Origin: a virus
Taxonomy: Duplodnaviria; Caudoviricetes
Length of the DNA stretch: 64,000 nucleotides
IMG/VR virus record: IMGVR_UViG_3300020441_000003
Span: 1 to 64,000 of that record
Direction: 5' to 3' (one strand)
A model generated the notes under the pieces. That model was not told the origin of the DNA. It was given only the letters and a program-made list of their open reading frames with translations, and searched no databases. Positions 30,089 to 46,012 of this stretch are shown here, piece after piece. Within the stretch, counting starts at the first letter, position 1; each line of letters opens with the position of its first letter. The translations under genes and the position numbers were made by a program.

Positions 30089-30096
30089 TATTTAGT
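30089..30096 (-). promoter_or_regulatory. T4-type late promoter
   Basis: ACTAAATA-N5-ATG. Confidence 0.6.
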
Positions 30097-30766
30097 AAAT
30101 AAAGTCGCCGTTTTCATCTACTTCCCACTCTAAATCATGATTTTTTATGTTCTGTCTTTCTCGTCCACCAGTCACATCCCAATTAAAAGAAATACTGTAT
30201 CTATCTTTTTGAGTTAGATTAGGTTCGACCATATGCATGAGACCACTAGGAAAAAGATATAGATCACCAGTCTTTGGTCTAACTCCCCATGACTCCCATA
30301 TTCTTGCCTGTGAAGAAGGAAAGTTTGAAACTATTTTATGGTCTGTATCAACCATTCTAAGATCACCCTCATCTCCTTCTGCTTGAATAAAGAATACACC
30401 TGAATAAAAACAACCATTATGTAAGTGTGGGGCGTTCCAAGCGCCTGGATAGTTAATGTTTGCCCATGAGTTATGCAACTCTATCTTTGCTGAATCTTTT
30501 TCGATTCCGAGAAAAGGAACAAGTTCATCTCTAAATTCTCTTTTAATTTGTCTTAATGCACGAATAAAAACAGGATTTTTATCTATACCATCTATTGATT
30601 GCCAACCATTTCTATTAGATATATTTCTACCTTTGGGGTCACGCTTTCTCATTGCATCAATTTCTTCTTTCAATGCAACCATATATTCTGGTGTAATCTC
30701 AGAACATTTATCTCTATCAAGATATTGTTTAGTTAAAACGAATGTTGGAAATAATAATTTAATCAT
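30092..30766 (-). CDS. Putative 2OG-Fe(II) oxygenase (TIGR02466-like)
   Basis: GWQS, WANIN, HLH...SGVFFI, FPSGLMHMV, RYSISFN; start MIKLLFP overlaps the upstream stop. Confidence 0.88.
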   Translation of the reverse strand: MIKLLFPTFVLTKQYLDRDKCSEITPEYMVALKEEIDAMRKRDPKGRNISNRNGWQSIDGIDKNPVFIRALRQIKREFRDELVPFLGIEKDSAKIELHNSWANINYPGAWNAPHLHNGCFYSGVFFIQAEGDEGDLRMVDTDHKIVSNFPSSQARIWESWGVRPKTGDLYLFPSGLMHMVEPNLTQKDRYSISFNWDVTGGRERQNIKNHDLEWEVDENGDFIY

Positions 30767-31598
30767 CTTTTTCACTCTTATGAAAAGGACACTCAGGTGG
30801 TGGTTCATCTTCTTTATAGAACTGACCTTTCTCTTGCCAATATCCTTCTAGACGATAAGGACCCATTTTACCGTCTTTCTTCATGTCATCATATTTAGTT
30901 CGACCCATTTCATCCATTGTTGGCATATCATCATGTGCAGTATACTTACTTCTATTATCGTGCCAAGTTTGTGAATCTTTCAATTGATATGTTGCAACCC
31001 ATTCTTCCCTTTTGTAAGGTATTATTTGAACTAATGGTGTGCCTTTCTTAATTACAAATGAATGGTCTACTTTTGGATAAAAAATTATTTGTGAGTTATC
31101 ATAATTAGTATTAAACTTATCTGTATCAATTATTCCATGCCATGTAGAAAAGAATTTGTTTTGATGTAAAAATGGGTCAACATAAAAACAAGAATATCCT
31201 GGCGGTGTTTTAATATTCCAGGCACTTCTCATTTTAAATGCATCTCTAACTGGATTATCACCACCTAGATATTCAAATGTATGGTCTACTTGATCTGCTG
31301 GGTGTGATGGCGAATTGTAATTGCCTTTCTCATCTTTAGTTATATAACTAGAACTGTTTTCTGAAAATCTATCAGCGCCTACTAAAACTTGCATATCTCT
31401 ATTTGCAGTTATAAACCATCCTGATTTTGTCCAGTCATGCATAGCTGGACATGCACGAATAGTCTGAGTAAACTTACCTCTAATAGATTGATTTACTTTC
31501 ATTTTTTTCCACCAATCAGGTAATAAACTCTTTGCAAGAACTGGTTTAAAGTCTCTTAAACTATCTTCATTGAATGTTATAAAGTCTATTGTAGGCAT
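30759..31598 (-). CDS. Hypothetical protein, dUTPase-like beta fold (DUF6065-like)
   Basis: TIRACPAM, WNIKTPPGYS, GIIDTD, IKKGTPLVQIIP. Confidence 0.6.
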   Translation of the reverse strand: MPTIDFITFNEDSLRDFKPVLAKSLLPDWWKKMKVNQSIRGKFTQTIRACPAMHDWTKSGWFITANRDMQVLVGADRFSENSSSYITKDEKGNYNSPSHPADQVDHTFEYLGGDNPVRDAFKMRSAWNIKTPPGYSCFYVDPFLHQNKFFSTWHGIIDTDKFNTNYDNSQIIFYPKVDHSFVIKKGTPLVQIIPYKREEWVATYQLKDSQTWHDNRSKYTAHDDMPTMDEMGRTKYDDMKKDGKMGPYRLEGYWQEKGQFYKEDEPPPECPFHKSEKDD

Positions 31599-32269
31599 GT
31601 TAATTCTACCTCGTCCCCTCTCAATACGATTGATCTTCTATCTGCATATCTAGCTCTTTCGTTAGGCGCATCTGCACCGTGTGGTATTCTTCCGTCAAAC
31701 ATAAGTAATCTATTTGGTTTAAAATCAACTTCTGCTATTTGATGATTTTCTATATGTTCATTTCTGCCTTCTAAACCTTGTTGATGTTCATTATAAAATC
31801 TCAATGTTCCGCCCCAATCATCATTCCAAAAAGTATTGTAATAGTATAGAAAAGATAAATTATAATCATCATCTTTGTCACAATCTGAATGTGTAGTTCC
31901 GTGTTGACCATATGTTTGTGAATTAGTTCCCATATATTGAAATCTTATCCAATCAAATCCAAAATCAGTTTTTATTTTATCATTCAAATATTTTGCCATA
32001 TATGTATATTGTTTTGGAATATCTTCAATCATTTGACCATTTTTTGCAGTAAAGAAACTTGAACCCCAAAATTGATGGTGAGGCAAACCTGTTTTACTTT
32101 GACCTCTAACAGAATTTGTTTTAGACCATGTTGGCATATTTGTTATCTGTTGATTTAAAAAATGATGCAATGATTGTTCTAGATAATTGTCTATTACATA
32201 TACTTTATCTAAAGGCAATTTATCAATATGAAAAGGTTTATCAACCTTAACTATTTCTAAAGAGTTCAT
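31586..32269 (-). CDS. 2OG-Fe(II) oxygenase, prolyl-hydroxylase-like
   Basis: HSD, WNDDWGGTLRF, FKPNRLLMFDGRIPHGA...R. Confidence 0.9.
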   Translation of the reverse strand: MNSLEIVKVDKPFHIDKLPLDKVYVIDNYLEQSLHHFLNQQITNMPTWSKTNSVRGQSKTGLPHHQFWGSSFFTAKNGQMIEDIPKQYTYMAKYLNDKIKTDFGFDWIRFQYMGTNSQTYGQHGTTHSDCDKDDDYNLSFLYYYNTFWNDDWGGTLRFYNEHQQGLEGRNEHIENHQIAEVDFKPNRLLMFDGRIPHGADAPNERARYADRRSIVLRGDEVELTCLQ

Positions 32270-32820
32270 TAGTCTATGAAAGCTTTTTGTGGTGGCGGTA
32301 TTAGATTTGCATAATCTTCAAATGGTTTTAAAACATCTTCTCTAGTTGACTGTATTTCATTAGCAACATTGATGTATACATTCCAGACGGCATCATAATA
32401 CTCTAATACTCTTCTTGCATCTGATCTTAAAGGGTGATTTGAACCCTCTCTGCCAGCCGCTATAACATCTATAGAATCTGTGAATCCATATGATTCAGAT
32501 TGTTGATACACATAATCTTTACACATTTCATTTAGATTTTCTGAATATTGATTGTTTAGATTTACATTTTCTGGTGGTGCAGAATTTTCAATGTAAGTTT
32601 CTATTGCATCTATTTCAGTATCGTTTAGATTTACTTTCACTTGTTCATCAAAACAGACATTATCTTTCCATTCTAGTATTTTAACTTCTATGTCGTCATA
32701 GACTACAACATCGTATTCAAATCCTAATTCAGGTTTATCTGTATTTTCAAAGTTGTATTGTAATCCATTCGGTTTTCTAACAGTTAGAGTTCCGTTTTCA
32801 TCGTATATAAACATATTCAT
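32269..32820 (-). CDS. Hypothetical protein (possible fibre assembly chaperone)
   Basis: Acidic 183 aa next to fibre genes; function inferred from position only. Confidence 0.55.
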   Translation of the reverse strand: MNMFIYDENGTLTVRKPNGLQYNFENTDKPELGFEYDVVVYDDIEVKILEWKDNVCFDEQVKVNLNDTEIDAIETYIENSAPPENVNLNNQYSENLNEMCKDYVYQQSESYGFTDSIDVIAAGREGSNHPLRSDARRVLEYYDAVWNVYINVANEIQSTREDVLKPFEDYANLIPPPQKAFID

Positions 32821-32837
32821 AATAACTCCATTATATC

Positions 32838-34376
32838 TTAATTGTTATGTTTTGCCAATAGTTTTTCGTAAATATTTAGGTGTTGTATCTCAGATGTATC
32901 CATACCCTCAATCCAAGGTCCGCCTCTTGTGTAATGAACTGCAAGTGGTCTCCATACTTTATCTGTATATGCATGTCCTTCTGTAATTACAAACCATTCT
33001 GGTATTTCTGATATTGCATCAGTCCATTCAAATTGATGTAAGTATTTTCCTGTTTCTGTATTCACTACTTCTGGTGTTAGTTTTTTACAGTCTTCATGAC
33101 CATTATTAAATATCATAAGCGAGGACCAAAGTTTCTTCGGATATGATACATTCTTTTCACCTGTAAATTTAGTTTCAGGATACTTATCAAAGTCGTATTG
33201 TATACATGCAACTGCATCATCAGGATTCATAAAGTAAAACATAGGTAAAATACTTCCGTCAAATAGAATATCATCATCTAAAAAGATACTAAATCCTTCA
33301 TAGTTTTCTAAATGTGGTATTAAAAATCTACTATATGTAAATTCAGTAGATTGATTTGCATAGTCTCTAGTATACTCAGGTATCTTTGAAATGTCAAGAA
33401 ACTTTATTTCTGGTCGCCATTTAGACATCGAACCATTGATATCACCTCCACCAAAACCATGATTTATACCTTTCTCTAAACATTTTTTACATAAGTCTGC
33501 AAGGTCTGTATGTCTTGAATCATAACCAACATATATGTTTAGTGGTTTACCTTTACATAACTTAGATACTTTTCTATTGAACTCATATACATTTTGTCTG
33601 AAAGATGTTTGAACTGATGCTTCGCAAGATATCTCTATGTAACCATTAGAATAATTAAACGATATATTCTTATGACCTTTTTTTGTAAATTCATTTTCTT
33701 TTACATCTTCTATCAGTTCTTCAATAGTATATTCTGGTGAATCTATAACATCAAACTCGTCCCAAATCCACATTGGCAATGTAGGGTCATCAAGTATTTC
33801 GAAGACACCTGATCTTACAGAACCTGGGTGTATTGCGAGTCTATATTTATCATTGTGTCCTTCATTTACTTTACCTTGAATAGGATTCCAAAGTCCTTCT
33901 TTTCTAATACTGTCAATCAACCAATGTGCCTTTGCAGAATGATAATAAGAAGAATTTAATGCATCTCTCTTTCTACCCTCATACTCATAGTCTACATTAG
34001 TAAAGTCACAATGATTACCTATTTCTTCATATTCATCATTAACATTTTTAAAGTCCATGCCAGATTTGCCTGGTTCTGGAAGTTCAGGTTTTTCAGTATA
34101 CCCATAAGGCAAAAAATATTGATAAGTAAATGATTGTGATTGTAATTGATTCCAACCCCACATCTTACCGTCTTTAATAAGTTGTGCGATTTCACCCCAT
34201 GTAGTTTTTTTGAGTTTAATACCTAAATGATCTTTCAACCACTTAAATGTTTTGTATGCATTTTCATCTTCGTATGGTTGATCTACTTCAAAACCACCTA
34301 AATGGTAATGAAAAAATTTATCCTTAGGTTCAGAAAATGTTTCTTTAACTTGTTCTAGAGTTTTTGATTTCATCAT
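32838..34376 (-). CDS. Fusion: ParB/Srx-like segment plus GT-A glycosyltransferase
   Basis: LIDSIRKEGLWNPI...HPGSVR; IYVGYDSR, STEFTYSRFLIP, FLDDDILF, WSSLMIFN. Confidence 0.8.
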   Translation of the reverse strand: MMKSKTLEQVKETFSEPKDKFFHYHLGGFEVDQPYEDENAYKTFKWLKDHLGIKLKKTTWGEIAQLIKDGKMWGWNQLQSQSFTYQYFLPYGYTEKPELPEPGKSGMDFKNVNDEYEEIGNHCDFTNVDYEYEGRKRDALNSSYYHSAKAHWLIDSIRKEGLWNPIQGKVNEGHNDKYRLAIHPGSVRSGVFEILDDPTLPMWIWDEFDVIDSPEYTIEELIEDVKENEFTKKGHKNISFNYSNGYIEISCEASVQTSFRQNVYEFNRKVSKLCKGKPLNIYVGYDSRHTDLADLCKKCLEKGINHGFGGGDINGSMSKWRPEIKFLDISKIPEYTRDYANQSTEFTYSRFLIPHLENYEGFSIFLDDDILFDGSILPMFYFMNPDDAVACIQYDFDKYPETKFTGEKNVSYPKKLWSSLMIFNNGHEDCKKLTPEVVNTETGKYLHQFEWTDAISEIPEWFVITEGHAYTDKVWRPLAVHYTRGGPWIEGMDTSEIQHLNIYEKLLAKHNN

Positions 34377-34391
34377 ATAGTTTCATAATAT

Positions 34392-35600
34392 TTATCCAGT
34401 TATAGGACTGCCTGGCCACGAACCTGCTGGGTCACCGTCCCACCTAATTACAGGCGTTCTGCCTTGTCTTGCATATGTAGACGGACTTCTGTGATTGTAT
34501 GTAAAAGGTGTTCGACCTTGTCTTGCATAAGTCGATGGTGATCTATGGTTATAAGTCAACGGACTTCTATGTTGATATGTCAAAGGACTTCTATGTTGAT
34601 ATGTGCCAGGTTGTCTTGAATCTCTAATATTAGGTTCTTGTGCATTTGAAGCCACTTGATAGATTGCAGGTTGTCTTGCATCTCTAATATTAGGTTCTTG
34701 TTGGTTTCTAATAAACGGATTCTGTGCATTAACAATAGAAGGCTGTTGTTGGTCACGAATATTAGGTTCTTGTGCATTTGAAGCCACTTGATAAATCAAT
34801 GGTTGTCTTGCATCTCTAATGTTCGGTTCTTGTCCAGCCCTTATAAAAGGATTTTGTGCATTGGCAATAGAAGGCTGTTGTTGGTCACGAATATTTGGTT
34901 GTTGTGCGTTTGAGGCAACTTGATATATAAGAGGTTGTCTCGCATCTCTAATATTAGGTTCCTGTTGGTCTCTAATAACAGGTTGTTGATTAGCTCTTAT
35001 ATTTGGTTCTTGTCCTGACCTGATATTTGGTTCCTGTGCATTTGAGGCCACTTGATAAATTAGTGGTTGTCTTGCATCTCTAATGTTTGGTTCTTGTTGC
35101 GATCTTATATTTGGTTCTTGTTGGTCTCTTATATTAGGTTGTTGTGCTGAACGAATATTTGGTTGTTGTGCATTGGAAGCCACTTGATAAATTAGTGGTT
35201 GTCTTGCATCTCTAATGTTTGGTTCTTGTGCATTTCTGATACTTGGTTCTTGAGCCGACCTGATATTTGGTTGTTGAGAAGACCTAATATTTGGTTCTTG
35301 TGCTGATACAGGATTTCTATATGTGAAAGGCGACCTGTGATTATATGTAAAAGGCAACTGATAACCAACAGGGTTTCTGTAACCGAATGGTGATCTATGA
35401 TTATATGTAAACGGATTTCTGTATGTAAAGGGCGACTGAAATGTAAATGGTTGTTGTCCTGCTACAGGGTTTCTATATGTAAATGGATTTCTATATGAAT
35501 ATGTTTGTTGACCAGACACAGGTGACCTATAAGTGAAAGGGTTTCTTCCACTGTTTGGTTGTCTTGCGTTTGCTATTGTTGGTTGCTGTGCTGACGGCAT
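34392..35600 (-). CDS. Pro-punctuated repeat fibre protein B (mirror partner of 35604-37436)
   Basis: 48 x-x-P units; QEPNIR-rich middle, YQHRSP-rich C-terminus. Confidence 0.85.
   Translation of the reverse strand: MPSAQQPTIANARQPNSGRNPFTYRSPVSGQQTYSYRNPFTYRNPVAGQQPFTFQSPFTYRNPFTYNHRSPFGYRNPVGYQLPFTYNHRSPFTYRNPVSAQEPNIRSSQQPNIRSAQEPSIRNAQEPNIRDARQPLIYQVASNAQQPNIRSAQQPNIRDQQEPNIRSQQEPNIRDARQPLIYQVASNAQEPNIRSGQEPNIRANQQPVIRDQQEPNIRDARQPLIYQVASNAQQPNIRDQQQPSIANAQNPFIRAGQEPNIRDARQPLIYQVASNAQEPNIRDQQQPSIVNAQNPFIRNQQEPNIRDARQPAIYQVASNAQEPNIRDSRQPGTYQHRSPLTYQHRSPLTYNHRSPSTYARQGRTPFTYNHRSPSTYARQGRTPVIRWDGDPAGSWPGSPITG
34452..35588 (-). repeat. Coding tandem repeats of 18/24/30/36 nt with a 132-nt super-period
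   Basis: Five DARQPxIYQVASNAQ blocks 44 aa apart. Confidence 0.9.
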
Positions 35601-35603
35601 AAA

Positions 35604-37436
35604 CTATTTCGGTAAACCGCCCCCTGGATTCATATTTTCCATGTTATGCACTAACATACCATTAGCAAAGAAATTATGATTTTCATTTACTCCCGATAAG
35701 TTATATACTTGCATGTCTGTGTTTTCGTTTATAGAAATTATTTCTAATCCTACATCGTCTGTTCTGTCAAACATAATCGCATCTGTCATTGAGAATAAAC
35801 TATCACCAACTTTAAGTTCATGAGAGTTTACGCCCTCCATCCAATCATGTTGTCTCTGACATTTTTCAACATCAAATGCTCCCCATTCTCCGTTAGTCAT
35901 CATTAGTGGATGACTATCTGTGACTTGTAATATTCTTCCGTCTGATAACTCTACATCATATATAGAGTCTATTCTTGGTACCATCACATGATATATTGAT
36001 TTTGGTTCTATTATCTTTGTGCTTTCGTTCCAAGTCATTATGTATTGTCCATTCACACAATGCTCGATAGGCGCATGACTGCCATCTCCTAACCAAATCA
36101 TTGTGCCAGGTGCGAAACAACCGCCACCAAATGGTATCTGAATCGGATTTCTATGTTGATATGTAAACGGCGATTGAGATGTAAATGGTTGTTGTCCGTT
36201 TACAGGATTTCTATATGTAAATGGTGTTCTTCCTATAACTGGTTGTTGTCCATTTACAGGGTTTCTGTATGTAAATGGATTTCTTGCACTATTCGGTTGT
36301 CTTGCATTACTTGGTGATTGTGCTGACCTAATATTTGGTTCTTGTGCGTTTACAGGATTTCTATATCCTCTCGGCGTTCTTGCATTTCTGATATTAGGTT
36401 GTTGACCAGATACAGGTGATCTATAAGTGAAAGGCGATCTATGCTGATATGTAAACGGTGACCTATGGCCATAAGTAAGAGGCGATCTAAAGTTATAAGT
36501 AGACGGACTTCTATGTTGATATGTAAACGGCGCTTGATAACTTCTAGGGTCTTGATATATAGAAGGCGATCTATGTTGATATTCAAACGGACTTCTATGT
36601 TGATAAGTTGTAGGCGATCTATGTTGATAAGTTGCAGGTGACCTATGTTGATATGTAAACGGCGCTTGATAACTTCTAGGGTCTTGGTATATAGAAGGCG
36701 ATCTATGTTGATATGTAAACGGTGACCTGTGTTGATAATTAGACGGACTTCTATGTTGATAAGTTGTAGGCGATCTATGTTGATATGTAAATGGCGCTTG
36801 ATAACTTCTAGGGTCTTGATATATTGACGGACTTCTGTGTTGATATATTACAGGCGTTCTTAAATTATATGTAGACGGACTTCTATGCTGATATGTAAAC
36901 GGACTTCTGTGTTGATATGTAAAAGGCGTTTGATAACTTCTAGGGTCTTGGTATATTGAAGGCGATCTATGTTGATAAATTATCGGTGTTCTTAAATTAT
37001 ATGTAGATGGACTTCTGTGTTGATAAGTTGCAGGCGACCTGTGATTATATGTGAAAGGTACCTGATAACTTCTCGGGTCTTGATATATTGACGGACTTCT
37101 GTGTTGATATGTAAAAGGCGTCTGATTACTTCTTATATTAGGTTCTTGTTGTGACCTTATATTGGGTTCTTGTTGGTCTCTAATTACAGGTTCTTGTGCA
37201 TTCGCAATATAAGGATATGGTTGTTGGCCATTTCTAATAAAAGGATTTTGAGCGTTCGCAATATAAGGATAAGGCTGTTGAACGCTCTCCTGTCCTGATG
37301 CATTGTTCCAACCAGAAGGCGTTTTGATATAGATTTGATCTACATCTTTCCATGTGCCTGAAGCTGTTTTTACCCAAGCACCTCGGGTTGCTGACCAACC
37401 TGAAGGAGTTTTTACCTTTTGTGAACCTGTTGCCAT
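35604..37436 (-). CDS. Pro-punctuated repeat fibre protein A with C-terminal Hint domain
   Basis: N-terminal VKTxSGxW hairpins, 48 x-x-P units, Hint motifs. Confidence 0.88.
   Translation of the reverse strand: MATGSQKVKTPSGWSATRGAWVKTASGTWKDVDQIYIKTPSGWNNASGQESVQQPYPYIANAQNPFIRNGQQPYPYIANAQEPVIRDQQEPNIRSQQEPNIRSNQTPFTYQHRSPSIYQDPRSYQVPFTYNHRSPATYQHRSPSTYNLRTPIIYQHRSPSIYQDPRSYQTPFTYQHRSPFTYQHRSPSTYNLRTPVIYQHRSPSIYQDPRSYQAPFTYQHRSPTTYQHRSPSNYQHRSPFTYQHRSPSIYQDPRSYQAPFTYQHRSPATYQHRSPTTYQHRSPFEYQHRSPSIYQDPRSYQAPFTYQHRSPSTYNFRSPLTYGHRSPFTYQHRSPFTYRSPVSGQQPNIRNARTPRGYRNPVNAQEPNIRSAQSPSNARQPNSARNPFTYRNPVNGQQPVIGRTPFTYRNPVNGQQPFTSQSPFTYQHRNPIQIPFGGGCFAPGTMIWLGDGSHAPIEHCVNGQYIMTWNESTKIIEPKSIYHVMVPRIDSIYDVELSDGRILQVTDSHPLMMTNGEWGAFDVEKCQRQHDWMEGVNSHELKVGDSLFSMTDAIMFDRTDDVGLEIISINENTDMQVYNLSGVNENHNFFANGMLVHNMENMNPGGGLPK
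35643..36119 (-). other. Hint (intein-like) domain, 159 aa, no endonuclease
   Basis: Starts CFAPGT, block B TDSHP, ends VYNL...HNFFANGMLVHN; +1 residue is Met. Confidence 0.9.
36144..37280 (-). repeat. Coding tandem repeats with a 132-nt super-period
   Basis: Five RSPSIYQDPRSYQ blocks 44 aa apart. Confidence 0.9.
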
Positions 37437-37454
37437 GTTATATCCTAATTACTC

Positions 37455-39929
37455 TTATGAGTATAGTATCCATAAATCTCCAACTGCACCATCTGAACTA
37501 CCAGGCGCTGAAGTTGATTGATATATGTTTCTCGCTACACCACCACTATTATTTGCGTATGATGTTGTAATTTGTGAGGCTCTAAAGTTTGCCTCTGAAA
37601 ATGTTAAGTTACCAGTTGATGCACCAGTAAATGAACCAGTTCCTACTGTCACTCTATCTGCACTTTCATCCCAACCAATAAATACATTGTCTGAACTTCC
37701 TCTTTCAAAAACAAGACCCATATCGTTGCCTGGTGTGCCTGTTGTTCCAGTTCCTAATTCTATTAATCTATCTTCGATAGTTGTGTTTGTTGATGATGCA
37801 GTTGTTGTTGCACCATTAACAGTTAAATTACCTGTGACTGTTAAATCGTTTGTGACTGCTAAATCATTTCCTATTGTCACATCATCTGGTAATGAAATTG
37901 TGACACCTGCTGTTTCTGAACCAGAACCTGATACTGTAATTTCATTTGAGGTACCTGCTACAGTTGCAACATAGTTTCCTGTTGTATCTGTGCCTAGTGC
38001 AACTGAGTTAGCGGCGATAGTAGTTGATATTGATACATTGCCTTTTGCAGTCTGAGTTGCGGTACCTGTGACATCACCTGTCAATGCAAAGTCTGAGTTT
38101 GCAACTACGAAATCTAAATTACCATCTGTATCATCGTATGATACTGAGATACCTGTTTCGGTACCATCTAACATACCACCAACAAAGTCTTCTACATTTT
38201 CTTGTGTAAGTTGAGTATTGTTTGTTGATATTGAACCACCAAGTGATACTGCTGTGCCATCGATTGTTATTGAACTATTTGATAGTAATGAGTTACCAAT
38301 AGAACCTGCAAGTTTGCCAGCGGCTATCGAACCTGCCAACATGGCATTTGTGACACCACCTGCTTTAACTTGTAATTGATCTGAACTTGTTTCTATTGAA
38401 CTATCATCTACACCAACTGCAAGAGATACGGAACTTCCAAGTGATACTGAACCACCACCTGATAAACCGTCACCTGCTGTGACTGTGACTGCACTATTAG
38501 CGAGTTTGCCATTTGCGATTGAACCTGCTAACATAGCGTTTGTGACACCTGATGCCTTGATTCTTAATGCATCACTGTTTGTTTCTATAGAACTGTCATC
38601 TACGCCTACTGCAAGAACACCACTTGTTGCAGATAAACCATCACCTGCAATTGCAGTCACTACATCTGCGACTGCCTCTTTCTTAGAACTGTTATCGCCT
38701 GCATCTATAATAGCAATACTATCATTTGCAACATCTACGGCGGCCGCTGTTAGTTCGTTTAAATCTAATGCAAGTGATACTGCACCTGATGTGCCACCAC
38801 CTGAGAGTCCGTTTCCTGCTGTGACTCCTGTAATATCGGCACTATTTGAGTTTGTTATTGTTAATGAATTAGCGGCGTCATCATATGATAATGATATACC
38901 AGTTCCTGCTGTTAGTAGTGCATTTACTCTGTCATCTACTCTTTCGTTTGTGTGATATAAATTAGATGAACCCTCTCCAACACTATCTGTATTGAGAGTT
39001 AAAGAACCACCTAATGAAACTGAACTACTGTTTAATGTTATTGCAGAGTTGGCTAATTCTGCGTTTGCAACACCACCGTCTTTGATTGTGACTGCGCCAC
39101 TTGATACTGCAAAATTATCTGAACTAAATGATGCAACACCTTTGTTAGATGTAGTTGCATCTTCGGCTGAATATGTGACTGTGCCTGAACTTTCTGCAAC
39201 ATCGATTCCTTCTCCAGCACTGAATGTTATTGTTCCACCTAATGATGTTGCAGTCGAATTACTGCCATCGGTAACTGTGATTGATGAGTTTGCAAGTTTA
39301 GAGTTCGCAATCGAACCACCTAACATTGCATTTGTGACACCTGATGCTTTTACTTGAAGTGTATCAGAAGAAATCTCTATTGAACTATCATCTACTTGAA
39401 CATTAAGTGTGACATCTCCTGATGTGCCACCACCTGTCAAACCACTTCCTGCAACGACAGATGATATATCTCCTGTTTCTGATATACTTAATACACCACT
39501 AGATGCATTTAATCCTGAACCTGCCATGGCAGATACTAAATCTGCAATCGTTTCTTTTTTACTTGCGTTTGAATCGTTAGCATCTATTAATACGACACTA
39601 TCGTTTGCGACATCAACTGTAGCCGCTGTTAATTCGTTCAGATCAAGAGCAAGTGATAATGCACCTGATGTGCCACCACCTGATAATCCATTTCCTGCTG
39701 TGACACCTGTAATGTCACCTACTTGTCCGTTAATTGTTAGGGTTCCAGCGGCGTCATCATATGATAACGATATACCTGTTCCCGCTGTTAAGAGAGTATT
39801 TACTTGGTCATCAATAACTTCTAGAGCTGCTGTGGAAAAAGCAGCTGCTGTCAAGTCACCTGAACTGTCGATGACTTCCGTAGAACCAATACTAAGTCCG
39901 TTTTTGATTCTAAAATTTTGAGCTGCCAT
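37455..39929 (-). CDS. Long tail fibre-like structural protein with internal repeats
   Basis: Gly/Ser/Thr/Ala-rich; repeated ITGVTAGNGLSGGGTSG and VDDSSIE...GVTNAMLAGSIAN; ends GAVGDLWILYS. Confidence 0.8.
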   Translation of the reverse strand: MAAQNFRIKNGLSIGSTEVIDSSGDLTAAAFSTAALEVIDDQVNTLLTAGTGISLSYDDAAGTLTINGQVGDITGVTAGNGLSGGGTSGALSLALDLNELTAATVDVANDSVVLIDANDSNASKKETIADLVSAMAGSGLNASSGVLSISETGDISSVVAGSGLTGGGTSGDVTLNVQVDDSSIEISSDTLQVKASGVTNAMLGGSIANSKLANSSITVTDGSNSTATSLGGTITFSAGEGIDVAESSGTVTYSAEDATTSNKGVASFSSDNFAVSSGAVTIKDGGVANAELANSAITLNSSSVSLGGSLTLNTDSVGEGSSNLYHTNERVDDRVNALLTAGTGISLSYDDAANSLTITNSNSADITGVTAGNGLSGGGTSGAVSLALDLNELTAAAVDVANDSIAIIDAGDNSSKKEAVADVVTAIAGDGLSATSGVLAVGVDDSSIETNSDALRIKASGVTNAMLAGSIANGKLANSAVTVTAGDGLSGGGSVSLGSSVSLAVGVDDSSIETSSDQLQVKAGGVTNAMLAGSIAAGKLAGSIGNSLLSNSSITIDGTAVSLGGSISTNNTQLTQENVEDFVGGMLDGTETGISVSYDDTDGNLDFVVANSDFALTGDVTGTATQTAKGNVSISTTIAANSVALGTDTTGNYVATVAGTSNEITVSGSGSETAGVTISLPDDVTIGNDLAVTNDLTVTGNLTVNGATTTASSTNTTIEDRLIELGTGTTGTPGNDMGLVFERGSSDNVFIGWDESADRVTVGTGSFTGASTGNLTFSEANFRASQITTSYANNSGGVARNIYQSTSAPGSSDGAVGDLWILYS

Positions 39930-43657: not shown

Positions 43658-44431
43658 TTAATCGCTAAATTGTGCAGTAGGTACCGATTGATGTATTTTT
43701 TCTACTGTCGAACTATCTTTTTTCACAAATACTTGACTTACTTTCGATACACCTTGTGCTTGTTTCTTAAATACACCTTTAACTTTTGCTACTTGTTGTA
43801 TAGGTCTAGTTGTAATATATGGTTGTTGATATATAAACGGACTTCTATACCCATATGGTAATGTATATGGTTGTTGAGTATTAGCAGATGTTTGTGCGTT
43901 TCTTATAAAAGGACTTTGTGCATTCGAAGGATTCCTATAAGTTGACGGCGATCTATGTTGATACTGTATAGGACTTCTATGATTATAAAAAGTCGGTGAT
44001 CTATGTTGATAGATTACTGGTTGTCTAGAATCTCTGATATTAGGTTCTTGTTGGTCTCTTATATTTGGTTCTTGTGCATTTCTAATATGTGGATTTTGTC
44101 TTTCAGCAGGTTGTCTTCCGATATATGGACTTTGTGCATTTTTAATTACAGGTTCTTGATACGCAACAGGATTTCTGTAGAATGCAGGTTGTTGTTGAGC
44201 TCTCTCGTTAGGTTGTTGAGCATCTGCGATATACGGATATGGTTGTTGTTGACTTCTAATAAAAGGATTTGCTTTATTTCTAATAAAAGGATTCTGCACA
44301 CTGTAAGTTGACGGTGATCTATGTTGATACGAAGATGGTTGTCTTGCATTTCTGATATGTGGATTTTGCACATCATAAGATGCAGGTTGTCTTGCAATTA
44401 TCGGAGTTGTAAACTGATATGCTACGCCCAT
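43658..44431 (-). CDS. Pro-punctuated repeat fibre protein D (mirror partner of 44435-46012)
   Basis: x-x-P units over residues 8-210; C-terminal VKGVFKK...VSQVFVKK. Confidence 0.82.
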   Translation of the reverse strand: MGVAYQFTTPIIARQPASYDVQNPHIRNARQPSSYQHRSPSTYSVQNPFIRNKANPFIRSQQQPYPYIADAQQPNERAQQQPAFYRNPVAYQEPVIKNAQSPYIGRQPAERQNPHIRNAQEPNIRDQQEPNIRDSRQPVIYQHRSPTFYNHRSPIQYQHRSPSTYRNPSNAQSPFIRNAQTSANTQQPYTLPYGYRSPFIYQQPYITTRPIQQVAKVKGVFKKQAQGVSKVSQVFVKKDSSTVEKIHQSVPTAQFSD

Positions 44432-44434
44432 TGC

Positions 44435-46012
44435 TTATTCTCCCTCTTCCTCGTCATCATTATTAGATTCAGCACTGGCACCAACTGCAAAAACAATTAG
44501 TAAATCACATTTATGTTCTACATTTGTGTCTAAATCTTTTATCATAAATTCTAAAATAGTTGATGAACCCCTATTATCAGCTGCGGAACCCTCACTTCCG
44601 TTAGTATCAACAGTAGTGCTATAACCTATTTCAAGTCCGTGGGTGCCTAGATTTTGATATGAAGTTGTTATTCCAGTCACACCAGTCGGAACTCCTAAAG
44701 CATGTTTTCTAGTAGTGGTCTCATCTGGATTACCATCATTGGTAGTTACCGAAGTCACACCAGTGGTTGTTCGTGGCCATTGCTCTGGTGTGCCTAAGCA
44801 TCCCATATCACTTGCTAGTTCAGCATAATTAGATGCATCTGGAGTATATCCCTTACTGGCAAGTTGACCATTCCATTGTGAGACATTTAAACTGTAAGGA
44901 GATGCTGTCGGGTTTGCATAATTAACTTTTACTTGAGCTCTTGAAGCTCCTATATTTGTAAGTTTAAATATTTGAGAAAAAGAAGAAGTTCCTATATCAC
45001 TGGTTGTATAACTAAATGAACTAGATGCTGATGATGACATATTACCTATTCTAGAATGATGTGGTGTCGTATTTGATAAAGTATCAACTGAACTAGCCTC
45101 TCTTACAAGAATTTCAACATCATTAGTATTTGTATATTGAACTTTAAATTCAAATCCAGCACCTGCTACGGCAGTTGAACCAGAGGCACTTGTATCTAAA
45201 TCAAATCCACCATCAATACCAATAATACTTGAAGCTCCTTGTTGTCTTATTGAATTGCCAGTGTTCGTATCATTTGGTATACCAGCACCTGTGCCAAATC
45301 CTGTTATAAGTTCTGATGCTCTTGCAATATATTCAACTTGACCTACTGTTAAAAATCCTGATGCAGGTTGTTGATGACTGTAAGTTGTTTGATATGAACC
45401 TATTGACGGACTTCTAAAGACATATGTAAATGGTGTTTGTGCGTTTCTTATAAACGGATTTTGTGCATTTGCAATCGATGGTGATCTATGACTATATGTG
45501 CTTGGACTTTGATGCTGATAGATAACTGGATTTCGACCTGTCGCCTGATATGAAGACGGACTTCTATGTTGATATATTATAGGGTGTCTGTATGCAACTG
45601 GACTTCGATAAGTTCCTGGTGATCTATGTTGATATGTTGAAGGCTGTCTTGCTTGATAACTTACCTGATAAATCGATGGTGATCTATGTGAATATTCAAA
45701 TGGACTTCTATGGTTATAAGTCAACGGACTTCTATGTTGATATGTAAACGGAATCTGTTGCGCTCTAATATTAGGTTCTTGTTGTGACCTTATATTAGGT
45801 TCTTGTTGGTTTCTAATAAAAGGATTCTGTGTTGCTACAGGATTCTGATATGTTGACGGTGATCTATGAGCGTAAGTAGAAGGAACCTGATAGATTGCAG
45901 GAGTTCTTGCATCTCTCTGAGCAATTACTGGTTCTTGTGCGTTCTTTGATGCCCTAGCTATATAAGGTTGTTGAAAGGCCGCTGGGTGTTTGATAAAAAT
46001 ATCATCTGACAT
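44435..46012 (-). CDS. Pro-punctuated repeat fibre protein C with C-terminal globular domain
   Basis: x-x-P units over residues 14-216, then about 300 aa of non-repetitive beta-rich sequence. Confidence 0.82.
   Translation of the reverse strand: MSDDIFIKHPAAFQQPYIARASKNAQEPVIAQRDARTPAIYQVPSTYAHRSPSTYQNPVATQNPFIRNQQEPNIRSQQEPNIRAQQIPFTYQHRSPLTYNHRSPFEYSHRSPSIYQVSYQARQPSTYQHRSPGTYRSPVAYRHPIIYQHRSPSSYQATGRNPVIYQHQSPSTYSHRSPSIANAQNPFIRNAQTPFTYVFRSPSIGSYQTTYSHQQPASGFLTVGQVEYIARASELITGFGTGAGIPNDTNTGNSIRQQGASSIIGIDGGFDLDTSASGSTAVAGAGFEFKVQYTNTNDVEILVREASSVDTLSNTTPHHSRIGNMSSSASSSFSYTTSDIGTSSFSQIFKLTNIGASRAQVKVNYANPTASPYSLNVSQWNGQLASKGYTPDASNYAELASDMGCLGTPEQWPRTTTGVTSVTTNDGNPDETTTRKHALGVPTGVTGITTSYQNLGTHGLEIGYSTTVDTNGSEGSAADNRGSSTILEFMIKDLDTNVEHKCDLLIVFAVGASAESNNDDEEEGE

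What the first reader, a model, noticed from the sequence alone, without database searches (positions are those of the whole stretch)
34452..37280. Residue-level pairing code: Q-x-P opposite R-x-P, aromatic opposite small
Seen: of 48 aligned anchors in A/B, 44 are Q opposite R, 4 are R opposite R (always R[NS]P with R[NS]P), and none is Q opposite Q. In C/D, 20 of 25 are Q opposite R. Sub-rules recur: QEP or QNP mostly faces RSP, RTP mostly faces QQP, and Q[TVAI]P faces RQP in both pairs. In 6-residue units Tyr/Phe mostly faces Gly/Ala/Ser/Thr. Established: cross-strand aromatic-over-Gly and polar ladder pairs stabilise antiparallel beta sheets. Inference: this is a small-alphabet complementarity code, analogous to base pairing and potentially programmable for protein design.
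Basis: partly seen in the sequence, partly recalled or inferred. Interest (0 to 1): 0.85.

Follow-up and report, generated by a model that had tools for sequence, protein, structure and literature searches.

The report
Mirror-coded two-protein phage fibre duplex
Two neighbouring genes of an uncultured marine T4-like phage encode repeat proteins that line up without a gap when one is read backwards, and facing residues follow a small set of pairing rules kept in about 50 related gene pairs; this points to a long two-chain antiparallel protein "duplex" that I could not find described.

Summary
In A (610 aa) and B (402 aa), every [QR]xP anchor of B lies on one antiparallel register with an anchor of A: 47 of 47, of which 43 are Q/R, 4 R/R and none Q/Q. 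The best parallel register has 30. C/D behaves the same way (21 anchors, 20 Q/R).

About 50 homologous adjacent pairs in marine viral contigs keep the mirror, with array lengths from 175 to 538 aa.
- Pooled, QEP faces RSP 469 times in 470, and QTP faces RQP 173 times in 193.
- Mutual information between facing residues has one sharp peak (1.51 bits) at one register, with even/odd alternation.
- All 3,654 anchor spacings are even.
- Double substitutions between close relatives are compensatory.
- A pair matrix trained on other loci gives A-B +546 bits in one register. A-D, C-B, self and parallel pairings get nothing comparable.

There is no nucleotide complementarity, so the mirror is a protein-level feature.

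Best reading: two chains of one antiparallel beta-type fibre shaft, with a degenerate pairing code that sets partner and register. Physical binding is not shown: the complex predictor was unavailable and AlphaFold2 left the repeat arms unfolded. Two details of the finding do not hold. Tyr does not mainly face small residues, and Q/Q does occur in relatives (6.8%).

The same scan noted this family earlier on other DNA. I found no publication or annotation of it.

The parts
35604..37436 (-). Gene A, 610 aa: N-terminal domain, [QR]xP repeat array, C-terminal Hint domain
   Evidence: ORF; Pfam Intein_splicing PF14890 E 1e-9, 38.9 bits against a cut-off of 35.8; 76 related loci
37281..37436 (-). 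A residues 1-52: conserved non-repeat N-terminal domain (MATGSQKVKTP...NNASGQ), at the same end of the duplex as the C-tail of B
   Evidence: Always 52 aa before the first paired anchor in relatives; many invariant columns
36120..37280 (-). A residues 53-439: repeat arm. Q-type units 10-8-10-8-8-8-8, then five 44-aa R-type super-repeats, then about 100 aa of mainly 6-residue units ending FGGG
35643..36119 (-). A residues 440-598: Hint / intein-like domain with Cys1, TDSH and terminal HN, followed by Met (no splice nucleophile)
   Evidence: Pfam; invariant C440, H509, H597, N598; AF2 pLDDT 75-87; Z 18, rmsd 2.9 A over 143 residues to BIL2 of Tetrahymena BUBL1 (6y75) and Z 17-18 to mini-inteins
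34452..35600 (-). B residues 1-383: repeat arm, the mirror of A's. About 96 aa of mainly 6-residue units, five 44-aa Q-type super-repeats, then R-type units 8-8-8-8-10-8-10
34392..34451 (-). B residues 384-402 plus stop: conserved C-terminal tail (..VIRWDG....WPGSPITG)
   Evidence: About 22 aa from the last paired anchor in nearly all relatives; invariant W387 D388 G389 W395 P396 P399
45356..45973 (-). C residues about 14-219: repeat arm of the second pair. Gene C = 44435..46012, 525 aa, with a C-terminal non-repeat domain that has no Pfam match
43787..44410 (-). D residues about 8-215: repeat arm that mirrors C. Gene D = 43658..44431, 257 aa

Best explanation
A and B (and likewise C and D) are the two chains of one elongated antiparallel hetero-oligomeric fibre shaft of a marine T4-like myophage.

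The chains lie side by side in opposite directions, residue against residue, over about 380 positions without a gap. They are most likely extended beta strands. Each [QR]-x-P triplet of one chain overlays the P-x-[RQ] of the other. All prolines and Q/R/T/N/I lie on one face, and all Tyr/Phe/Ala/Val/His on the other.

A degenerate set of preferred cross-chain pairs makes only the cognate partner in one register fit: P with Q or R, E with S, H with N, F with A or G, Y with R, A or V, N with T, I with Q or N. The irregular series of 6-, 8-, 10- and 12-residue units adds to this specificity. Mis-pairing with the second pair made in the same cell, or slippage within the repeats, is thereby avoided.

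The conserved N-domain of A and C-tail of B sit together at one end, presumably the virion-proximal end. The Hint domain of A and the N-terminus of B sit at the other end.

Shown: the mirror, the covariation, the cognate specificity in silico and the 2-residue periodicity. Inferred: direct contact, beta geometry, fibre role. Unknown: stoichiometry (AB or A3B3).
For: - One gapless antiparallel register holds 47 of 47 anchors in A/B and nearly all anchors in about 50 homologous pairs. Parallel registers hold about half. 0 of 1000 unit shuffles reach the observed value.
- Array lengths track each other from 175 to 538 aa, within 16 aa in 41 of 48 pairs. A's N-flank is always 52 aa and B's C-flank about 22 aa.
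- Q/R complementarity is 79% at the mirrored unit, 58-68% one unit away and 53% expected.
- Mutual information between the middle residues is 0.91 bits at shift 0 and at most 0.25 elsewhere. QEP faces RSP 469/470.
- Residue-level mutual information has a single peak, 1.51 bits at x+y=S+2, with S, S+2 and S+4 above the odd registers and no second peak within +/-70.
- All 3,654 anchor spacings are even, and the two parities have distinct composition.
- Co-substitution odds ratio is 4.9 at S+2 against 1.26 at S+3.
- Of 151 double substitutions in 8 close comparisons, the old pair is allowed in 81% and the new in 76%, but the hybrids in only 42-43%.
- A matrix trained without the window scores A-B +546 bits (second register 61) and C-D +190. 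A-D, C-B, self and parallel pairings give no positive full-length register. The cognate B ranks first for 38 of 46 A proteins.
- The genes lie in the tail-fibre and baseplate module of a T4-like phage.
Against: - No physical or structural evidence of binding exists.
- Neither AlphaFold2 run gave the repeat arms any structure, so the beta geometry has no model behind it and rests on sequence periodicity alone.
- The ESM Atlas model of B alone looks weakly like a beta-helix (pLDDT 0.55).
- Four pairs have unequal arm lengths (L027, L036, L045, L067). This shows either tolerance of mismatch or assembly collapse.
- Pooled statistics contain related sequences and tandem copies, so the counts are not independent events. 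The shift and register controls share that bias, which is why I rely on them.
- A two-stranded ribbon 380 residues long would need further association to be stable, and nothing here shows that.
Confidence: 0.75

Rival explanations
1. Covalent hairpin. The duplex forms as above, and the Hint domain of A then converts Gly439-Cys440 into a thioester that the N-terminal amine of B attacks. This joins A and B into one out-and-back chain and releases the Hint domain.
For: B's Met1 lies opposite an A residue 4-16 residues (median 10) before the Hint Cys1 in all 18 Hint-bearing pairs, and the linker is Gly/Pro-rich. Catalytic Cys1, TxxH and HN are invariant, and no Cys/Ser/Thr follows HN in any of 15 homologues, so ordinary splicing is excluded. 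The best fold match is a BIL domain of a Tetrahymena BUBL locus (Z 18). From my own knowledge, BIL domains in that context are proposed to conjugate their flank to other proteins.
Against: Many pairs have no Hint domain and keep the mirror code: A ends GGG plus 5-8 residues, or carries another 160-aa domain. Simple self-cleavage, like the C-terminal chaperone domains of other fibres, explains the same facts. There is no chemical evidence.
Confidence: 0.12
2. Two separate homo-oligomeric fibres or solenoids, possibly joined end to end (A's C-end to B's N-end). On this reading the mirror pattern is a by-product of shared repeat ancestry.
For: Most known phage fibres are parallel homotrimers (PMC12143355). 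A and B repeats are clearly paralogous, sharing the [QR]xPxxxxx frame. The ESM Atlas model of B alone resembles a beta-helix at low confidence. The 6-mer-rich ends of A and B would abut in a head-to-tail arrangement.
Against: Common ancestry gives parallel, not mirrored, order. Parallel registers hold about half the anchors with chance-level complementarity. This reading does not explain single-register residue covariation, compensatory double changes, equal arm lengths over a threefold range, or cognate specificity. AF2 finds no fold for B alone.
Confidence: 0.05
3. A nucleic-acid-level cause: the two coding regions pair as RNA or DNA, or B arose as the antisense of A, and the protein mirror is a side effect.
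For: Nucleotide complementarity is highest at exactly the mirrored register (35% against a mean of 25% over +/-60 nt). P/R, I/Q and V/Y pairs have complementary middle bases.
Against: Complementarity of 31-37% per codon position is far below any duplex and follows from the amino-acid pairs themselves. The only inverted repeat between the genes is 16 nt at 81%. Q/R, E/S, F/A and H/N are not sense-antisense pairs. The pattern is kept at the protein level across relatives with 50-80% identity.
Confidence: 0.02

Closest known systems
T4 gp37 long-tail-fibre needle (domains D10/D11)
   Same: It is a phage fibre tip in which the chain runs out and back. D10 is made of residues 811-881 and 1010-1026, and a strand Gly (G921) packs against a Phe (F970) of another subunit (PMC6957217). 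It shares antiparallel extended strands, aromatic-over-Gly packing and a T4-like phage context.
   Different: In gp37 both strands belong to one polypeptide, the needle spans about 130 residues, and it is held by seven iron ions bound to His (PMC6957217). Here the out and back strands are separate gene products of up to 540 residues each. They have a proline-punctuated repeat, one His per R-type unit and no HxH motif. A profile of B homologues finds no solved structure at E<=1.
Streptococcal antigen I/II stalk (A-region with P-region)
   Same: It is a long stalk formed by two repeat regions of different type that pair along their length, holding end domains apart (PMC6586375).
   Different: It is a single chain pairing an alpha-helix with a polyproline II helix, and it is a bacterial adhesin. 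No residue-by-residue mirror or even-spacing rule is reported for it. Here there are two chains with a 2-residue (beta-like) periodicity.
Heteromeric fibrous proteins whose partner and register are set by sequence (spectrin alpha/beta antiparallel dimer, type I/II keratin, heterotrimeric collagen, acid-base coiled coils)
   Same: Partner choice and register are written in complementary repeats of two chains. Spectrin is antiparallel with matched repeats (own knowledge; PMC4466138 and PMC2116092 appeared, and I did not read them in detail).
   Different: Those are helical (coiled coil, three-helix repeats, triple helix) with heptad or Gly-X-Y codes. None is a gapless residue-against-residue mirror of two beta-type chains.
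Bacterial intein-like (BIL) / Hint domains
   Same: The C-terminal domain of A has the Hint fold and catalytic residues, and lacks the +1 nucleophile, as BIL domains do.
   Different: It sits at the tip of a repeat fibre, next to the N-terminus of a second protein. Its processing role there is unknown.

Membership tests
Hint / intein superfamily (Pfam PF14890 Intein_splicing) | Profile match above the curated cut-off | tested here: met
   38.9 bits against a cut-off of 35.8, E 1e-9, residues 449-598
Hint / intein superfamily (Pfam PF14890 Intein_splicing) | Hint fold | tested here: met
   AF2 pLDDT 75-87 for the domain. VIA-align Z 17-18, rmsd 2.3-2.9 A over 136-146 residues to BIL2 (6y75) and DnaB/DnaE mini-inteins
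Hint / intein superfamily (Pfam PF14890 Intein_splicing) | Catalytic Cys1, block B TxxH, terminal His-Asn | tested here: met
   C440, H509 (TDSH), H597 and N598 invariant in 15 homologues
Canonical splicing intein | Cys, Ser or Thr at +1 of the C-extein | tested here: not met
   Met in the window; F, G, L, I, Y or R in the homologues
T4 gp37 needle domain | Sequence relationship to gp37 or any solved fibre | tested here: not met
   The profile of B homologues finds no PDB chain at E<=1. No Pfam match for B, C or D
T4 gp37 needle domain | HxH iron-binding motifs | tested here: not met
   R-type units carry a single His (..YQHRSP..); no HxH in the arrays
T4 gp37 needle domain | Out-and-back antiparallel strands in a trimer | not testable with these tools
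   Antiparallel pairing is inferred from covariation. The oligomeric state is unknown and the complex predictor was unavailable
Cementoin / trappin transglutaminase substrate repeat (PF10511) | GQDPVK-type hexapeptides with both Gln donor and Lys acceptor | tested here: not met
   Borderline hit of 27.9 bits against 27 on residues 393-421. The arrays contain Gln but essentially no Lys. I read the hit as compositional resemblance
Single-chain beta-helix / solenoid | A confident solenoid model of one chain alone | tested here: inconclusive
   The ESM Atlas model has pLDDT 0.55 with beta-helix look-alikes, TM 0.5-0.64 by query. AF2 gives pLDDT 39 and no strands. There is no second covariation register such as a two-start solenoid would give

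The most novel reading that the evidence does not exclude
A natural, sequence-addressable antiparallel protein duplex. Two separate polypeptides would zip residue against residue over hundreds of positions, using a small set of cross-strand pairs. Orthogonal pairs would coexist in one virion and lengths would be tunable by matched repeat gain. In Hint-bearing members the tip might be closed covalently by Hint-mediated ligation to the partner's N-terminus. If so, the rules could be copied to design orthogonal beta-type hetero-assemblies of set length and register.
Probability: 0.5. Interest if true: 0.95.

Novelty: categorically new. Interest (0 to 1): 0.86.

Why it matters
Sequence-coded partner and register selection is well understood for helices (coiled coils, collagen) but not for beta structures, where hetero-specific, in-register pairing is a standing design problem. 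This family offers dozens of natural, diverged examples with matched lengths from about 175 to 540 residues. Two pairs that appear orthogonal in silico sit in one genome, and the pair table is explicit. For phage biology it would be a new way to build a fibre: two gene products running in opposite directions, instead of a parallel homotrimer. It occurs in abundant uncultured marine myophages related to SAR11 and OM43 phages. It also raises a clear evolutionary question, namely how repeat gains in two genes stay matched.

Tried and rejected
- Complex prediction on A(1-440) with B (alignments A1, A2) was unreachable seven times and then declared unavailable. There is no verdict on binding.
- AlphaFold2 on B alone gave pLDDT 39 and no secondary structure.
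- As a modelling device only, I folded a read-through piece: A330-610, the TAG stop read as Gly, one codon, then B1-110, with 7 in-frame homologues (A3). Only the Hint domain folded and both arms stayed below pLDDT 30. This says nothing for or against pairing. Natural read-through is not proposed, because homologous pairs lie in different frames or have several stops between the genes.
- No DNA or protein match to the repeats exists in 50,697 phage records. Only inteins of Vibrio phages matched the Hint domain.
- No fused longer form was found (weak evidence).
- No inverted DNA repeat links the genes, and nucleotide complementarity is 31-37%.
- BLASTP finds no similarity between A's N-domain and D's C-tail.
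- Literature searches found no description of such a pair.
- All 328 or more database relatives are unnamed or 'hypothetical'.
Full report
**What is there.** The window is part of an 89.5-kb IMG/VR virus record. Its major capsid protein is 64-66% identical to those of the OM43 phage Melnitz and of Pelagibacter phage HTVC008M. It also carries T4-type sheath, portal, terminase and baseplate wedge genes. In the fibre and baseplate module, all on the minus strand, lie four genes:
- gene A (35604..37436, 610 aa) and gene B (34392..35600, 402 aa);
- about 8 kb further on, genes C (44435..46012, 525 aa) and D (43658..44431, 257 aa).

All four consist largely of proline-punctuated units that begin with [QR]-x-P and are 6, 8, 10 or 12 residues long. 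A also has a 52-aa N-terminal domain and a C-terminal Hint domain (Pfam PF14890 above its cut-off).

**Checking the observation.** With 0-based indices, all 47 [QR]xP anchors of B satisfy x+y=432 with an anchor of A. Of these, 43 are Q against R, 4 are R against R and none is Q against Q.
- The degenerate unit QQTYSY supplies the 48th pair, which reproduces 44/4/0.
- The best parallel register has 30 coincident anchors, 12 of them complementary.
- Shuffling the order of B's units never approached the observed value (0 of 1000).
- C/D gives 21 coincident anchors, 20 of them Q/R.
- The sub-rules hold in the window: QEP and QNP face RSP, RTP faces QQP, and Q[TVAI]P faces RQP.
- The four R/R cases are a self-complementary unit. 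FTY-R[NS]P-VxG pairs with its own kind as F/G, T/S, Y/V, R/P.

Printed out, the alignment is gapless over about 380 residues, and every P-x-[RQ] of reversed B overlays a [QR]-x-P of A.

**Relatives.** A scan of viral contigs with A returned 76 loci.
- In nearly all of them two adjacent repeat genes occur with matching anchor counts between 24 and 72.
- In 48 non-truncated distinct pairs almost all anchors fall on a single antiparallel register.
- Array lengths agree within 16 aa in 41 of 48 pairs, over a range of 175 to 538 aa.
- A's N-flank is always 52 aa and B's C-flank about 22 aa.
- The other end is variable: a Hint domain, a short GGG..EP tail, or another domain of about 160 aa.
- Gene order is inverted in some loci.
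- Four pairs have unequal arms (L027, L036, L045, L067).

**The pairing code across the family.**
- Q/R complementarity is 79% at the mirrored unit, 58-68% one unit away and about 55% further off. The expected value is 53%.
- The middle residues of facing triplets share 0.91 bits at the true unit and at most 0.25 bits at any shift. QEP faces RSP 469 times in 470, QTP faces RQP 173/193 and QAP faces RQP 52/60.
- A residue-by-residue scan gives one peak of mutual information, 1.51 bits at x+y=S+2. This is the register in which the triplets overlay as Q/P, x/x, P/R. Even registers (S, S+2, S+4) stand above odd ones, and there is no second peak within +/-70 residues.
- At that register 28 unordered pair types cover 90% of 14,495 positions. 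P faces Q or R (96%), E faces S (89%), H faces N (75%), F faces A or G (82%), V faces Y (64%). Tyr faces R, A, V or G.
- All 3,654 spacings between successive anchors are even. Pro, Q, R, T, N and I occupy one parity, and Tyr, Phe, Ala, Val and His the other.

A strict 2-residue period, together with cross-chain covariation that alternates with parity, is what antiparallel beta pairing predicts. It excludes a 3-residue (collagen or PPII) period.

**Covariation in the strict sense.**
- Across 267 comparisons of related loci, a change in A coincides with a change at the facing B site with odds ratio 4.9 at S+2 and 4.7 at S+4. The ratio is 1.26 at S+3 and 1.6-2.3 at the other control registers (S+0, S+1 and the far ones).
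- In eight close comparisons there are 151 double substitutions. The old pair belongs to the common set in 81% and the new pair in 76%. The two single-change hybrids belong in only 42-43%.
- Many double changes are chain swaps (TN>NT, YR>RY, SE>ES, QT>TQ) or switches between allowed pairs (QT>ES, ST>GF, HN>AF).

**Specificity.** A log-odds pair matrix trained only on other loci scores the window's A against B at +546 bits in one register (next best 61), and C against D at +190. A-D, C-B, A-A, B-B and all parallel arrangements have no positive full-length register. Across the family the cognate B ranks first for 38 of 46 A proteins. The exceptions are near-identical loci or the two length-mismatched ones. 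The matrix in this second test included the test pairs.

**Excluding a nucleic-acid cause.** The only inverted repeat between the genes is 16 nt. Complementarity at the mirrored register is 31-37% per codon position, which follows from the amino-acid pairs. The mirror is a property of the proteins.

**Structure prediction.**
- The complex predictor was not available.
- AF2 gave no fold for B alone (pLDDT 39).
- A read-through piece was used purely as a modelling device to put both arms and the Hint domain in one chain. Only the Hint domain folded.
- That domain matches BIL and mini-intein structures at Z 17-18.
- The ESM Atlas model of B alone is weakly beta-helix-like (pLDDT 0.55).

The geometry therefore rests on sequence statistics alone.

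**Most likely mechanism.** A and B are the two strands of an antiparallel duplex that forms a fibre shaft, possibly bundled into a higher oligomer. The aromatic and small-residue face is a natural candidate for a buried interface. The pairing rules and the aperiodic series of unit lengths fix partner and register. A's N-domain and B's C-tail form one end. At the other end B's Met1 lies 4-16 residues from the Hint Cys1 in all 18 Hint-bearing pairs. The Hint domain lacks a +1 nucleophile, so it should cleave or transfer rather than splice. Self-cleavage is the simple reading. Ligation to B's N-terminus is a minority hypothesis.

**Comparison with what is known.**
- The nearest functional analogue is the T4 gp37 needle, where one chain runs out and back and a strand Gly packs against Phe (PMC6957217). 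That needle is a single chain, iron-stapled and unrelated in sequence.
- The antigen I/II stalk pairs two repeat regions of one chain as a helix with PPII (PMC6586375).
- A recent atlas of fibre folds describes trimeric fibres and mentions no antiparallel or heteromeric shaft (PMC12143355).
- No isolate phage record carries these repeats.
- All database relatives are unnamed.

**Earlier notes.** Earlier notes of this same scan, on this and on other genomes, describe the same family and reach similar readings. They are not independent evidence. I tested the claims here on this window.

**Verdict.** The interpretation as a complementarity code is supported statistically and evolutionarily, with three corrections:
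- the code is degenerate;
- Q/Q is disfavoured, not forbidden;
- Tyr pairs mostly with Arg, Ala or Val.

Physical pairing and programmability remain to be shown.

Noticed in passing
window 35643-36119 (A residues 440-598): The Hint domain at the tip of the duplex has invariant Cys1, TxxH and HN, and no +1 nucleophile. Its best fold match is a BIL domain of a Tetrahymena BUBL locus (Z 18). The partner's Met1 lies 4-16 residues from Cys1 in 18 pairs, across a Gly/Pro-rich linker.
   Followed up: partly
window 30092-34376 and 37455-39929: The gene order fibre (824 aa), A, B, GT8 glycosyltransferase with an N-terminal extra domain (512 aa), orf183, 2OG-Fe(II) oxygenase (227 aa) is conserved. tblastn finds these neighbours in 71, 75, 75 and 65 of 76 loci. 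This hints at hydroxylation or glycosylation of the Pro-rich fibre.
   Followed up: partly
window 35600-35606 and 44431-44437: In both pairs the first gene's stop is followed by exactly one codon and then the ATG of the second gene, in the same frame. Relatives use other frames or have several stops, so conserved read-through is unlikely.
   Followed up: yes
L027, L036, L045, L067: In these pairs one arm is longer than the other by roughly 30-100 residues (by 44 aa, one super-repeat, in L027), so the single register covers only part of the array. This is either real mismatch tolerance or collapse of tandem repeats in assembly.
   Followed up: no
L074-L080, L087: Gene order is inverted. The B-type gene (ending ..RWDG..WP..PIT) comes first and the A-type gene (MASGNQ.VKTP..) second, and the mirror is kept.
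   Followed up: partly
window 36173-36259 (A residues 393-421): There is a borderline Pfam hit to Cementoin, the trappin transglutaminase-substrate repeat (27.9 bits against 27). The arrays have Gln but almost no Lys, so I read it as compositional resemblance.
   Followed up: partly
L085-L088 (genome contigs): The only hits among 185,579 species genomes are four contigs in MAGs labelled Verrucomicrobiales (two contigs of one MAG), Rhodobacterales and Sphingobacteriales. Two of the contigs are 111-121 kb long. They are most likely phage contigs binned by mistake and give no host clue.
   Followed up: partly
window 44435-45355 (C residues about 220-525): The C-terminal half of C is a non-repeat, Ser/Thr/Gly-rich domain with no Pfam match. 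It sits at the same end of the C/D duplex as the Hint domain does in A/B, so it is a candidate receptor-binding tip.
   Followed up: no
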